From assembly GCF_003918875.1 (NCBI RefSeq), contig NW_025767013.1:3348001-3412000 (forward strand): 64,000 bases of DNA, in the 5' to 3' direction. Below, in pieces: positions 44,101 to 47,100 of this stretch. The first letter of the stretch is position 1. Every line of letters begins with the position of its first letter. The position numbers are program-made. Source of the DNA: Haliotis rubra (Eukaryota).

Positions 44101-47100
44101 GTACTTTAGGAGCACATTATGACCTTCTAGTTAATAATGAGTTCTATATGCATGCCCGGGTTAAGTGTCCCAATTGGAGGAACAGAAATACCATGTTTGA
44201 TGTCCACAAACACCGCATTACCAGCAGCAAGTGAAGTTCTCCGTGGGATCTGTAGCAGCACCGACGTGTACTGTTAACAGGCGCCATACAATTCCTCAAT
44301 CCGTGAAGTGTTTACTCTTTGCGAATGATTAAACTCTCACATGAACTATAATCTTCCATGCAGTTCGGAAACTAAAAAAACAGATTGGTGCTTACCACAA
44401 AGCCAATGGGGCTTTTAATCGAAAGTTTAATATCTAGAATCCTTAAATTATTTTCGAATGTTTTTAACAAGTTTAATAACTCTAGCGGCATCTTCATCTA
44501 AATTAGTCAGACAACATAACGGAAAATGTAAATACGAACGTTTGTTCCTTGTTGTATCCTAAGGTACAAAAATGTCTCTCAATGTTCAATATATAGGAGA
44601 CTGAACAATAGAATGTTGTGATTAAATAAATCCCAGTAAATAGCATCAAAATACAAACTATTATGCGAAATGACATCCACTGTATGGACTCAGTCCGCGT
44701 AAAACAGCCGTCCTTCTCTACAGACACCAAACGACCTGAAACGAGGAATTCAAAACAACTAGAAAGACAATATTAAAGTAAAAAGGCACAAAACAGTAAA
44801 CTTATTTTCATTAGTGACAACGAAATGTCGGTTGAAGTAGTGGGTCAAATTAATTTAAAAACATAGATCGCAGGAATGCGTCTAAATCTATACAGGATGC
44901 AGTTATTGCTGATAAAGTTTACACACATCGTCACAGTTCACATTCTTCAGTAACCTACCACTGAGGGGGGCTCCCACGTAATCTGACACGACACACTGGC
45001 TTAGCATTCTGACCCGTGCTGATTCTCTCAATCACTCCCCTTTCTCCTCTGTACGCGCCATTAACGATGCACGTTACATCCCCAACCTCAGGCACAAGAG
45101 TCATGAGGTATTTCTGGTCCACCATCAAGATATTGTCATTACACAGCACATGCGCGACGCCAGTATAAGGAGACAGAAGACCTATGATTCTGCACTTCTT
45201 CCTGTGGTTACTTCTGCCATACTTGTCTGTGATGATGGTTACCACGATCCCTGCCCGCAGCCAACTGTCCCGTCGGTTCATCCTTTCTTTCTCCTTCTCC
45301 TCTTCTTCCATTATTTCTGCGAGTGCGGACTTCCGGTTGCTGTTGGGTTTCACGTGGTTGCTGAGAGATTTTTGTGATAAAGATGTCCTTTGATCTTTCT
45401 TGTAGGGAGATCGTCGCGGGGACATTTTGAAGACGACTTTTTCTCGTTTAAGTGTCCACTTCTGATTGTTTTGTTTTAGTGGCTCTGAACCTGTGTTCAT
45501 TATCGGAGGCACTCTTGTGTTTTCGTCACACTGCGGAGTGTTGTTGCACATATCTTCTTTAGTAGGCGTGAGTCCATTACGATCACTTTGTCCTTTAAAG
45601 TTTCTATCAACGTAACGCGGTTTAGGACGTGACGGCAAAACGTGCGCGGTAGCCTCCACTTTCTGGAGATTTTTAATGTACCAGATTTTGCTTGAGTAAT
45701 CCACAAGGAAACGCCCAACTCTTCCTTGGTATCGAATAAACTCGTCAAGTGTCTTCCATTTCGTTTTGGATATATGAACATTGCCTTTGTTCAACATGTA
45801 CTTCATGTACACTTCGCTGGCTTCCACTTTCTTGTCTCCATAGCACTGCTGAAGAACATTCATAAATCCATTCTCAAATTTTGAAGATAATCTGTTTCTT
45901 CCTTCCTCGCTCACTCCTTTGAATTGTTCCATCACAATGTCGTGGAACAGTGTTAAATCAACAACCGCGCTGTTCTTCTGAAGAGTCTGAATTTTGGCAC
46001 GCTTATCCATTTGTTGGTGTTGATGCGTCCTCGTGCAGGTTCTGAACTAAATGAGCTACTAGCCTATGTCTCAAACGTTATATATAGGACCCCAATATAC
46101 GTTCACCGTACGATCCATGACGTACATGACATTGACTTGATGTGGTGTGCGAGTCGTGAACGTTATCACAACGTTTTAGAATATCTAGCATACACATGTA
46201 TAACTACATTGCAGGGCAATAACCAAATTATCTGTTTGTATTATTAGATGAACAGCTGATATTATTGCTGAGTGGAAAAATAAATAAATTTAGAACTTTC
46301 GTGCAGCGTAGAGCTCTATTATTAGAAACCGCGGGTAAACGTATGGAACGTTTTCCTCATGTTGACCACGTGATTTGTTTGGACCCAAATATAGAAATCA
46401 CATGGCCTGTGACGTCAGACATGTAGAAAATGGCAGCAGGGCCGAACTGGGCATACTCGCCTGGTGTAATTATTGTTGAAATTCTTTCCTATTTGACGCT
46501 TCGTGACAGACTCAGAGCAGCGTCTATTTGCAAGAGATGGAGATCGTGCCTTTTCCACCCCTCACTGTGGAACAGTGTTGTGTTTGAACTGGGTGAAAGA
46601 GGCAGAGCGAAGTCAAAATTTCTTGCTGACAGATGTGGCCGTTTCGTGCGTGGAGCGGTTGTTAAATTCAACTCGCTCAGTGTCGCTGAAGTGAGAGAAT
46701 GTGGCAGAATACTAGCTATCCTTTCGGAAAACAAGAACCTAAGGCATTTCTCTCTCCAACCTTCGAGTTGCCACATCGAATGGCCCGACACTGAGGCTGT
46801 CCATATTATTGACAAGTAAGCATATTCCACTGTTTATGTTGTGCTTGTGACGTCAGCGGGTCAAGGCGCTCTGATGGAATTTCGTCGAATTGCGCAGTTG
46901 CATCAGTTTTTCTGACCATTTATACTAGTGACACAAATCGACATGAAAAAAACATCAGCTGAATGACTACGTTTATACAATATGTAATACCAGAGTACTT
47001 ATTAGTTGATTATTTTGGTAACATCTGGCCATGGAGGCAGCGGTCCATTTGTAAACAAACAGCTGTCAAAACCAACTGTTCCGAAACACGACGAGGAAGG

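What the first reader, a model, noticed from the sequence alone, without database searches (positions are those of the whole stretch)
44955..46010. Zinc-finger-less, almost intronless KIN17 paralogue, probably a retrogene that borrowed the FBXO33 promoter
Seen: a 351-codon uninterrupted ORF retaining the KIN17 winged helix and C-terminal SH3-like/KOW region. The first ~40 aa have no Cys, so the zinc finger is missing, and the linker is rewritten (basic, SPRRSP). The ATG lies 419 bp from the divergent FBXO33 ATG. Known: KIN17 is normally very conserved, multi-exon and has an N-terminal zinc finger. Inference: a fast-evolving retrocopy that stayed open despite high divergence, so it is probably under selection with altered function (e.g. 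germline).
Basis: partly seen in the sequence, partly recalled or inferred. Interest (0 to 1): 0.68.

Follow-up and report, generated by a model that had tools for sequence, protein, structure and literature searches.

The report
Zinc-finger-less KIN17 duplicate in abalone
Blacklip abalone carries a second, intronless, fast-evolving copy of the splicing factor KIN17 that has lost its zinc finger but keeps two folded domains under selection, and in this assembly a one-base slip cuts off its tail.

Summary
The 351-codon ORF at 44955-46010 (-) is real, and the window is Haliotis rubra, not human. Pfam finds the KIN17 winged helix and first SH3-like domain but no KIN17 zinc finger. The canonical H. 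asinina KIN17 has that finger and lies on another chromosome-sized contig.

Orthologues exist in H. asinina (82% identity) and H. cracherodii (69%). A profile search of 1.84 billion proteins found nothing between them and ordinary KIN17 (796 versus 133 bits).

The folded domains are more conserved than the linker, and their differences are conservative. Neutral substitution would rarely keep the frame open (2 to 25 of 1000 simulations). So this is a maintained gene, not a dead copy.

New here: the ORF's stop is a +1 frameshift in a C6 run (44965-44970). The next frame continues to the same ending as in H. asinina. It is either a Nanopore assembly error or a recent lesion.

Retroposition is plausible, but no poly(A) or target-site duplication survives. 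Sharing the FBXO33 promoter is plausible (419 bp, head to head) but untested, as is germline expression. The gene is auto-annotated but unstudied.

The parts
44955..46010 (-).
   Evidence: It is 100% identical over its whole length to the NCBI protein 'DNA/RNA-binding protein KIN17-like [Haliotis rubra]'.
45897..46010 (-). N-terminal 38 residues. They stand in for the canonical 58-residue Lys-rich peptide plus C2H2 zinc finger. No Cys, no PF25095 match.
   Evidence: The profile-profile alignment to canonical KIN17 only begins at residue 30, opposite canonical residue 59.
45654..45896 (-). KIN17 winged-helix core, residues 39-119. Ile80 sits at the position of human/worm Met107, and Asn77 at that of His104.
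   Evidence: Pfam WH_KIN17, E 3.9e-18, profile positions 8-88 of 119. Alignment to PDB 7ABH chain 7. Identity among the abalone orthologues is 83-94%.
45336..45653 (-). Rewritten basic linker, residues 120-225, net charge +12. It holds the invariant motif FKMSPRRSPY; SPRRSP lies at 45405-45422.
   Evidence: Only 50-70% identical among the abalone orthologues, with differences of neutral-like quality.
45117..45275 (-). First SH3-like domain (KN17_SH3), residues 246-298. It is preceded by the conserved RKSALAEIMEEEE helix.
   Evidence: Pfam 32.7 bits against a 27.9 cut-off. PDB 2CKK, E 5e-16.
44903..45092 (-). Second SH3-like/KOW domain, split by the frameshift. Residues 307-351 are in the ORF frame; the last 20 codons and the ancestral stop lie in the +1 frame (44903-44965).
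   Evidence: H. asinina residues 1-348 align to 46010-44967 and residues 346-368 to 44974-44906 in another frame. The H. asinina orthologue matches SH3_KIN17_C at profile positions 1-56 of 57, 39.1 bits.
44965..44970 (-). C6 homopolymer (G6 on the + strand) holding the extra base that shifts the frame
   Evidence: With one C fewer, the reading GSPLSG would equal that of H. cracherodii.
44736..44958 (-). 223-nt intron of the public H. rubra gene model (GT at 44958-44957, AG at 44737-44736), followed by the 15-codon alternative end at 44690-44735
   Evidence: The tail of P0001, SFGVCREGRLFYAD, equals the translation of 44690-44734. The H. cracherodii isoform X2 uses the same exon in the other frame (residues 352-380 to 44742-44656, 48% identity, E 0.11).
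46011..46429 (.). 419-bp divergent interval between the KIN17-like and FBXO33 start codons. It holds a TATA-like TATATATAA (46078-46086, minus-strand sense), CCAAT (46092), an E-box (46367) and a CRE palindrome (46410-46417).
   Evidence: CpG observed/expected is 1.19 against a window median of 0.57; 3.8% of 1272 windows of the same size reach that value.
46430..52510 (+). FBXO33 orthologue with four coding exons: 46430-46816, 48409-49113, 50668-50859 and 52373-52510
   Evidence: tblastn of the H. asinina FBXO33-like protein covers residues 1-458 at 98.4, 96.6, 89.1 and 93.5% identity. F-box domain. Named orthologues.

Best explanation
This is a protein-coding duplicate of the spliceosome-activation factor KIN17, so far seen only in Haliotis.

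Shown:
- It has no introns across the conserved region.
- It lacks the N-terminal Lys-rich peptide and the C2H2 zinc finger.
- It keeps the winged-helix core and the tandem SH3-like module under purifying selection, while its linker has been rewritten into a basic Ser/Pro/Arg-rich segment that drifts almost neutrally.
- It sits head to head with FBXO33, 419 bp apart.
- In this assembly an extra C in a C6 run shifts the frame and removes the last 19 residues of the second SH3-like domain.

Inferred:
- It arose by retroposition of a KIN17 mRNA in the abalone lineage, followed by a burst of divergence.
- It is transcribed from the CpG-rich interval shared with FBXO33, possibly through its own TATA-like element.
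- The protein still docks where KIN17's winged helix and SH3 tandem dock (SF3B1 in the pre-Bact spliceosome) but cannot clamp the U6/5' splice-site duplex with a zinc finger. It would then act as a variant of, or competitor to, canonical KIN17.
- The frameshift is somewhat more likely an assembly error than a real lesion.
For: Family and architecture:
- Pfam finds WH_KIN17 and KN17_SH3 above their cut-offs.
- PDB 7ABH/7ABI/8I0P KIN17 matches at E 3.3e-34.
- hhalign against 16 canonical KIN17 proteins gives probability 100%, E 3.2e-41, over residues 30-354 against canonical 59-382.
- No PF25095 match in any of the three abalone paralogues, against E 1.7e-20 in the canonical H. asinina KIN17.

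A paralogue, not the orthologue:
- The canonical H. asinina KIN17 (400 aa) lies on a 66,300,187-bp contig. The paralogue and FBXO33 both lie on a contig of 89,013,229 bp.
- The three paralogues form a clade with 100/100 support.

Restricted distribution:
- In the profile search of 1,835,955,588 representatives, the best hit outside the abalone cluster scores 132.8 bits against 795.9.

Selection:
- Domains against the rest are identical at 162/201 versus 78/144 sites between H. rubra and H. cracherodii (Fisher p 2.5e-7). The other two pairs give p 1.5e-3 and 4.8e-8.
- The mean BLOSUM62 score of the differences is +0.29 and +0.44 in the domains, -0.35 and -0.59 elsewhere, and -0.45 and -0.50 in neutral simulations.
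- Random substitution to the observed divergence leaves the frame stop-free in 25/1000 and 2/1000 runs.

No introns: canonical residues 68-377 align to 45896-44979 in one piece.

Frameshift:
- Searches show it. 16 of the 20 residues after the shift equal H. asinina, and the stop falls at the same place.
- The published H. rubra assembly is Nanopore-based with a single Pilon round (PMC6774278, passages).

Promoter.

Mechanistic frame:
- In pre-Bact, KIN17 places its zinc finger and winged helix above the U6/5'SS duplex and leaves before Bact-I (PMC11283556, passages).
- The SH3 tandem sits on SF3B1 where PRP2 later binds (PMC8865678, passages).
Against: - No retroposition hallmark survives: no poly(A) tract after either stop and no convincing flanking direct repeats.
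- The tree cannot place the paralogues. The stem is 7.6 changes per site, their position among canonical KIN17 is unresolved, and a sister relation to abalone KIN17 is only marginally tolerated (AU p 0.06). An older origin is therefore possible.
- There are no expression data, no mapped transcription start and no binding data. The splicing role is extrapolated from human and worm KIN17.
- The winged-helix match lacks profile positions 89-119. His104, the residue nearest the U6/5'SS helix in the human structure, is Asn here. Spliceosome docking may therefore be lost.
- If the frameshift is real, the H. rubra copy has an incomplete second SH3-like domain and may be decaying.
- CpG enrichment is modest: 3.8% of windows of the same size match it.
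Confidence: 0.6

Rival explanations
1. The H. rubra copy is a processed pseudogene, or is on its way to becoming one. The frameshift is real, the fast evolution reflects relaxed constraint, and the open frame is a remnant.
For: - A +1 frameshift truncates the second SH3-like domain.
- The protein diverges about four to six times faster than the neighbouring FBXO33: 18% against about 3-4% to H. asinina.
- The linker and N-terminus change with neutral-like quality.
- No expression evidence was available.
Against: - The frame is open over about 350 codons in three species. Under neutral substitution only 2 to 25 of 1000 simulations stay stop-free.
- The domains are significantly better conserved than the rest, and their differences are conservative.
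- The sequence after the shift is undecayed, and the stop is where H. asinina has it.
- The shift lies in a homopolymer in a Nanopore-derived assembly polished once with short reads.
Confidence: 0.12
2. It is an old DNA-level duplicate of KIN17 that later lost its introns and was lost from other lineages. On this reading it is not a retrocopy and not abalone-specific.
For: - A very long stem (7.6 changes per site) and an unresolved position among bilaterian KIN17.
- A clade with abalone KIN17 costs 2.14 log-likelihood units, AU p 0.06.
- No poly(A) tract or target-site duplication.
Against: - No intermediate or similar protein turned up in 1.84 billion representatives. Four of the 1320 candidates in the named collection passed E <= 0.001, and three of those are abalone.
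- KIN17 is single-copy in human, fly, worm and Daphnia (PMC2889900, passages).
- Wholesale loss of every intron in the conserved region is what retroposition produces in one step.
- The current rate within Haliotis is already high, so a long stem does not require great age.
Confidence: 0.15
3. It is the ordinary KIN17 gene with its zinc-finger exon(s) missed further upstream.
For: Nothing beyond the general chance of an unannotated 5' exon.
Against: - A separate canonical KIN17 exists in the congener.
- All three orthologues start with MDKR at the same ATG, and an in-frame stop lies 12 codons upstream.
- tblastn with the canonical first 66 residues finds nothing better than E 0.048, on the + strand at 33 kb. 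The upstream side is occupied by FBXO33 on the other strand.
- Identity to canonical KIN17 is only 26-31%, while the other 15 canonical proteins share 61-81% with the H. asinina one.
Confidence: 0.02

Closest known systems
Canonical KIN17 (human KIN, C. elegans DXBP-1; PDB 7ABH/7ABI/8I0P, 2V1N, 2CKK)
   Same: - Winged-helix core and first SH3-like domain, and in the H. asinina orthologue a complete second SH3-like/KOW domain.
- The RKSAL-EIME-EE helix and the EKV-F motif.
- Lys108 stands at the position of human Lys135 (alignment). That this residue is a methylation site is recalled, not tested.
- The Atlas's own model of the H. asinina orthologue matches KN17_SH3 clusters at TM 0.85, normalised to a 151-aa cluster model.
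   Different: - No zinc finger and no N-terminal Lys-rich peptide, including the Lys23 region.
- The winged-helix profile positions 89-119 are missing.
- The linker has net charge +12 instead of +1.
- Ile replaces the Met that is invariant in all 16 canonical proteins, and Asn replaces the invariant His two residues before it.
- Only about 30% identity.
- No introns in the conserved region; fast evolving; a second copy in the genome.
Retrogenes expressed from a neighbour's bidirectional promoter, for example human HTR7P1 beside HEBP1 (Carelli et al. 2016, PMC4772013, passages)
   Same: [quoted passage not shown] Here the gap is 419 bp between start codons, in a CpG-rich interval.
   Different: No transcription start or co-expression data. 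No poly(A) tract or target-site duplication. A TATA-like element suggests a possible core promoter of its own. The animal is a mollusc, where such cases are little described (this last point is recalled).
Yeast Rts2, which shares only the N-terminal portion of KIN17 (PMC8865678, passage)
   Same: A natural KIN17 relative that keeps only part of the domain set.
   Different: It is the mirror image. Rts2 is described as sharing the N-terminal part. The abalone paralogue keeps the winged helix and the C-terminal SH3 tandem and drops the N-terminal zinc finger. Rts2 was not examined here.

Membership tests
KIN17 family | N-terminal C2H2 (U1-like) zinc finger, Pfam PF25095 | tested here: not met
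   No match at E <= 0.01 in the window ORF, P0002 or P0003. The canonical H. asinina KIN17 scores 73.4 bits, E 1.7e-20. There are 0 Cys in the first 40 residues. The hhalign alignment starts after the finger.
KIN17 family | KIN17 winged-helix domain, PF10357 | tested here: met
   65.9 bits against a cut-off of 25, E 3.9e-18, but only profile positions 8-88 of 119. PDB 2V1N, E 1.3e-12.
KIN17 family | First SH3-like domain, PF18131 | tested here: met
   32.7 bits against a cut-off of 27.9, profile positions 1-53 of 53. The orthologues P0002 and P0003 score 25.9 and 27.6 bits, just below the cut-off.
KIN17 family | C-terminal SH3/KOW domain, PF25092 | tested here: not met
   The window ORF scores 18.8 bits against a cut-off of 27.9, over profile positions 1-26 of 57, because of the frameshift. 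The H. asinina orthologue meets it at 39.1 bits, positions 1-56 of 57. The missing part is encoded in the +1 frame at 44903-44965.
KIN17 family | Being the single-copy orthologue of animal KIN17 | tested here: not met
   A separate canonical KIN17 exists in H. asinina on another contig. The abalone paralogues form their own clade with 100/100 support on a very long stem.
Retrogene (processed gene copy) | No introns where the parent gene has them | tested here: inconclusive
   The copy is uninterrupted over canonical residues 68-377. The exon structure of abalone KIN17 could not be read with these tools. That animal KIN17 has many exons is recalled.
Retrogene (processed gene copy) | Parent gene present elsewhere in the same genome | tested here: inconclusive
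   Shown for H. asinina by different contigs.
Retrogene (processed gene copy) | Poly(A) relic and flanking target-site duplication | tested here: not met
   No A-run follows either stop in 43400-44960. Only short, non-colinear direct repeats flank the gene (D4 and D6). Their loss is expected at this divergence.
Bidirectional (shared) promoter pair | Head-to-head genes less than 1-2 kb apart | tested here: met
   The start codons at 46010 (-) and 46430 (+) have 419 nt between them.
Bidirectional (shared) promoter pair | CpG-rich, unmethylated-type interval | tested here: met
   CpG observed/expected is 1.19, and 3.8% of 1272 windows of the same size reach it. The FBXO33 gene body falls to 0.06-0.47.
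Bidirectional (shared) promoter pair | Divergent transcription starts in the interval, and co-expression | not testable with these tools
   No transcript or CAGE data were available.

The most novel reading that the evidence does not exclude
The abalone paralogue is a naturally evolved 'fidelity-relaxed' KIN17. It still docks on SF3B1 in the pre-Bact spliceosome through its winged helix and SH3 tandem. But it lacks the zinc finger and the Lys23 region, and it carries Ile at the Met107 position. Those are the two places where C. elegans suppressor mutations (K23N, M107I) shift 5' splice-site choice towards non-canonical sites (PMC8865678). Expressed in a particular tissue, possibly the gonad, it would compete with canonical KIN17 and reprogramme 5' splice-site selection.
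Probability: 0.15. Interest if true: 0.7.

Novelty: new variant of a known kind. Interest (0 to 1): 0.45.

Why it matters
KIN17 is one of the C2H2 zinc-finger families described as resistant to both loss and expansion, with one gene each in human, fly, worm and Daphnia (PMC2889900). Its first 60 residues are almost invariant across the 16 bilaterian proteins aligned here.

A second copy that discards exactly that part and evolves several times faster than its neighbour, yet keeps the other two modules under selection, is a natural domain-deletion experiment on a spliceosome-activation factor.

If it is expressed and enters the spliceosome, it would give a handle on what the zinc finger contributes to 5' splice-site fidelity. 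If not, it is one more lineage-specific retrogene in a mollusc, a group where these are little described.

In practice, the frameshift shows that the public H. rubra model of this gene probably carries a wrong C-terminus.

Tried and rejected
- **Cluster membership look-up.** It was meant to show a canonical KIN17 in H. rubra and the species in each cluster.
- **Structure prediction.** No model of my own was made and no fold search was run.
- **ESM Atlas.** It does not hold the window's sequence. The stored orthologue P0002 was used instead. With zinc-finger families skipped, the feature search gave no usable hit.
- **Retroposition hallmarks.** No poly(A) tract and no convincing target-site duplication were found. 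The paired short repeats D4 and D6 flank the gene but are not colinear, and I treat them as chance.
- **A zinc-finger exon elsewhere in the window.** None was found.
- **A zinc-finger 'relic' in residues 4-29.** MAFFT places them opposite the finger, but hhalign finds no significant similarity before residue 30. In-place decay therefore cannot be told from a 5'-truncated copy with a new N-terminus.
- **Placing the duplication on the tree.** The position is unresolved, and the AU test is marginal at p 0.06.
- **Bacterial-type promoter and terminator scan.** It is not meaningful for this eukaryote.
- **tRNA, Rfam and Pfam scans of other ORFs.** Nothing related to the finding.
- **Literature.** 0 papers hold KIN17 with abalone, or KIN17 with Haliotis. 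Of 26 papers holding KIN17 and 'paralog', the 12 listed (listing only) include none about a KIN17 duplicate. The first retrogene search was too loose to be useful. The H. asinina genome paper holds no divergence times.
- **dN/dS.** Not computed, because no coding DNA of the other Haliotis species was reachable.
- **Supplements.** The supplementary files of the papers were not seen. Those of the H. rubra genome paper could bear on RNA-seq support.
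Full report
**What is there**

The minus strand holds an ATG-to-TAG ORF of 351 codons at 44955-46010. Read stop to stop it is 363 aa, the longest of the 73 ORFs of at least 90 aa in the window; the next longest is a 244-aa FBXO33 exon. There are no N runs.

The ORF is 100% identical over its whole length to the NCBI protein 'DNA/RNA-binding protein KIN17-like [Haliotis rubra]' (P0001, 365 aa). The window is therefore blacklip abalone, a mollusc, and not human.

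Pfam results for the ORF:
- WH_KIN17 at residues 39-119, E 3.9e-18.
- KN17_SH3 at residues 246-298, 32.7 bits against a cut-off of 27.9.
- Only the first 26 of 57 profile positions of the C-terminal SH3 domain, 18.8 bits, below the cut-off.

Against solved structures the ORF matches human KIN17 from pre-Bact spliceosomes (7ABH/7ABI/8I0P, E 3.3e-34). It also matches the isolated SH3 tandem (2CKK) and winged helix (2V1N).

**The zinc finger is gone**

- The canonical H. asinina KIN17 (P0031, 400 aa) scores 73.4 bits on PF25095 (C2H2-zf_KIN17). The window ORF and its two orthologues give no match at E <= 0.01.
- The first 40 residues contain no Cys, against three in each of the five canonical proteins tabulated.
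- The first 60 residues of the 16 canonical KIN17 proteins aligned are almost invariant, while the paralogues are about 29 residues shorter there.
- MAFFT sets residues 4-29 opposite the finger. A profile-profile comparison, however, only starts at residue 30 against canonical residue 59 (probability 100%, E 3.2e-41). Whether the finger decayed in place, or the copy was 5'-truncated and gained a new N-terminus, cannot be decided.
- No zinc-finger exon lies elsewhere in the window (best E 0.048, on the wrong strand and side). All three orthologues begin MDKR at the same ATG.

**It is a paralogue**

A search with a canonical KIN17 found 'DNA/RNA-binding protein KIN17-like [Haliotis asinina]' with the full domain set, on a contig of 66,300,187 bp. 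This suggests that linkage to FBXO33 is conserved in that species.

Orthologues of the paralogue are known from H. asinina (368 aa, 82% identity) and H. cracherodii (385 aa, isoform X2, 69%).

A profile of the three was scored against 1,835,955,588 representative proteins:
- 1020 proteins reached E <= 0.001.
- After the abalone cluster (795.9 bits) the next best scored 132.8 bits.
- As far as this library goes, no intermediates exist outside Haliotis.

In a tree of 19 named proteins the three paralogues form a clade with 100/100 support on a stem of 7.6 changes per site, and its position among canonical KIN17 is unresolved. That stem length is probably inflated by saturation. Forcing the paralogues together with abalone KIN17 costs 2.14 log-likelihood units (AU p 0.06), so that grouping is not rejected and not shown either.

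Identity to canonical KIN17 is 26-31%. The other 15 canonical proteins share 61-81% with the H. asinina one.

**Is it maintained by selection?**

Coding DNA of the other species was out of reach, so I used three indirect tests.

1. *Uneven conservation.* Identity by region for the three pairs, in the order H. rubra-asinina, rubra-cracherodii, asinina-cracherodii:

| Region | Identity, % |
|---|---|
| Winged helix | 94 / 85 / 83 |
| Helix plus first SH3 | 88 / 82 / 81 |
| Second SH3 | 79 / 70 / 74 |
| Linker | 70 / 52 / 50 |
| N-terminus | 87 / 61 / 58 |

   Domains against the rest, same pair order:

| Pair | Domains | Rest | Fisher p |
|---|---|---|---|
| H. rubra - H. asinina | 177/201 | 107/144 | 1.5e-3 |
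| H. rubra - H. cracherodii | 162/201 | 78/144 | 2.5e-7 |
| H. asinina - H. cracherodii | 161/201 | 75/144 | 4.8e-8 |

2. *Quality of the differences.* The mean BLOSUM62 score of the differences is +0.29 and +0.44 in the domains and -0.35 and -0.59 elsewhere. Random substitution gives -0.45 (sd 0.20) and -0.50 (sd 0.15).
3. *Open frame.* Random substitutions applied to the H. rubra ORF until it reached 82% or 69% identity left it stop-free in 25 of 1000 and 2 of 1000 runs. Indels were ignored, which makes the test conservative.

Together these point to purifying selection on the two folded modules and near-neutral drift of the linker.

The gene is nevertheless fast. It differs from H. asinina at 18% of residues. 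The FBXO33 exons next door are 98.4, 96.6, 89.1 and 93.5% identical.

The linker is basic, with net charge +12 against +1 to +3 in canonical KIN17. It holds an invariant FKMSPRRSPY motif.

**The ORF's end is a frameshift**

- H. asinina residues 1-348 align to 46010-44967, and residues 346-368 align to 44974-44906 in another frame.
- The switch lies in a C6 run at 44965-44970.
- The +1 frame reads LSGRLLKNVNCDDVCKLYQQ and then stops at 44903-44905. Sixteen of those 20 residues equal H. asinina, and the stop is at the same place.
- The H. asinina protein has a complete C-terminal SH3 domain (39.1 bits, profile positions 1-56 of 57).
- With one C fewer, H. rubra would read GSPLSG, as H. cracherodii does.
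- The public H. rubra model escapes the stop by splicing from GT at 44958-44957 to AG at 44737-44736. It adds SFGVCREGRLFYAD. H. cracherodii isoform X2 uses the same downstream exon in the other frame.
- The published H. rubra assembly merged Nanopore-only and hybrid assemblies, polished with two Racon rounds and one Pilon round (PMC6774278, passages). A homopolymer error is therefore plausible. I put an assembly or allelic artefact somewhat ahead of a fixed lesion, but only reads can tell.

**Retrogene and promoter**

The coding region is uninterrupted over canonical residues 68-377. This is what a processed copy looks like. However:
- No poly(A) tract follows either stop, and no convincing target-site duplication flanks the gene.
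- I could not read the parent's exon structure. That animal KIN17 genes have many exons is recalled.

The start codons of the paralogue (46010, minus strand) and of FBXO33 (46430, plus strand) are 419 nt apart. FBXO33 is complete in the window, with four coding exons. It was identified exon by exon: the F-box domain in exon 1 and named orthologues for exon 2.

CpG observed/expected values:

| Stretch | CpG o/e |
|---|---|
| 419-bp interval | 1.19 |
| Window median, 419-bp windows | 0.57 |
| Paralogue's ORF | 0.87 |
| FBXO33 exons | 0.52 |
| 500-bp stretches between 48000 and 49999, inside the FBXO33 gene | 0.06-0.47 |

Only 3.8% of 1272 windows of the same size reach the interval's value.

The interval holds a CRE palindrome at 46410, an E-box at 46367, and CCAAT at 46092. 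It also has a TATA-like TATATATAA at 46078-46086, 76 nt upstream of the paralogue's ATG. These are consensus matches only.

Head-to-head placement within 2 kb is a documented but minor route by which mammalian retrocopies gain expression: 11 human and 12 mouse cases (PMC4772013, passages). The layout fits a shared promoter, but no transcription start or expression data were available. A germline role is pure conjecture.

**How it might work**

In human pre-Bact complexes KIN17 places its zinc finger and winged helix above the U6/5' splice-site duplex, and it leaves on the way to Bact-I (PMC11283556, passages). The winged helix is modelled at the SF3B1 hinge, and the SH3 tandem on SF3B1 where PRP2 later binds. 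The worm mutations K23N and M107I shift 5' splice-site choice towards a non-canonical /UU site (PMC8865678, passages).

The abalone paralogue lacks the Lys23 region and the finger. By the alignment to the 7ABH chain:
- Ile80 stands at the Met107 position. It is invariant in the three paralogues, while all 16 canonical proteins have Met.
- Asn77 stands at His104, the residue nearest the U6/5'SS helix in the human structure.
- His79 (human His106) and Lys108 (human Lys135) are kept.

My best guess is a variant that retains the SF3B1-docking modules but not the RNA clamp, and so modulates or competes with canonical KIN17. This is inference. It could equally have moved to another nucleic-acid-binding role.

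The Atlas's own model of the H. asinina orthologue has mean pLDDT 0.64. It matches KN17_SH3 clusters at TM 0.85, normalised to the 151-aa cluster model, over residues 220-367.

**Novelty and verdict**

KIN17 is reported as single-copy and resistant to expansion in human, fly, worm and Daphnia (PMC2889900, passages). No paper in the library holds KIN17 together with abalone or Haliotis. The gene is auto-annotated in RefSeq, so its existence is on record, but its nature has not been described: no zinc finger, restricted to one lineage, fast but constrained, and frameshifted in this assembly.

I rate it a new variant of a known kind, of moderate interest.

Noticed in passing
window 45771-45773 (codon 80 of the ORF): The paralogue has Ile at the position of KIN17 Met107, the same substitution as the C. 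elegans suppressor allele M107I that alters 5' splice-site choice. It is invariant in the three abalone paralogues, while all 16 canonical proteins keep Met.
   Followed up: partly
window 44690-44958: The public H. rubra gene model splices out 223 nt starting at the ORF's stop codon. H. cracherodii isoform X2 uses the same downstream exon in a different frame, and its tail is not conserved beyond about 12 residues. This looks like a weak alternative 3' end rather than a conserved exon.
   Followed up: partly
window 46405-46418 and 46843-46856: Two copies of a 14-nt word containing the CRE palindrome TGACGTCA. One lies just upstream of the FBXO33 ATG and the other just inside its first intron (family D12).
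   Followed up: no
window 44000-50000: CpG observed/expected stays at about 0.8-1.1 across the KIN17-like gene and FBXO33 exon 1, then drops to 0.06-0.47 in the FBXO33 gene body. This pattern would fit a germline-methylated housekeeping gene next to an unmethylated one. The link to methylation is recalled, not tested.
   Followed up: partly
window 15795-16603 (-) and 22204-22986 (+): Relics of Tc1/mariner-type transposases: DDE_3 and HTH_Tnp_Tc3_2 in the first, helix-turn-helix domains in the second. Both are broken into separate ORFs.
   Followed up: partly
window 20621-21510, 25748-27415, 28708-30494, 35019-35470 and 43661-43853: Five satellite or minisatellite arrays: 54 nt x 16; 20 nt x 83 with higher-order periods of 145/165; an AT-rich 95/190-nt array in a 29% GC stretch; 59 nt x 7.6; and two perfect 97-nt copies about 1.1 kb downstream of the KIN17-like gene.
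   Followed up: no
window 2534-2592 (-); ORF fragments at 535-867, 36764-37090 and 42795-43124: A tRNA-like match (Rfam tRNA, 34.2 bits) that ARAGORN does not call. Separately, three ORF fragments share the peptide SEPDHPIPLV. These are probably copies of a SINE-like interspersed repeat.
   Followed up: no
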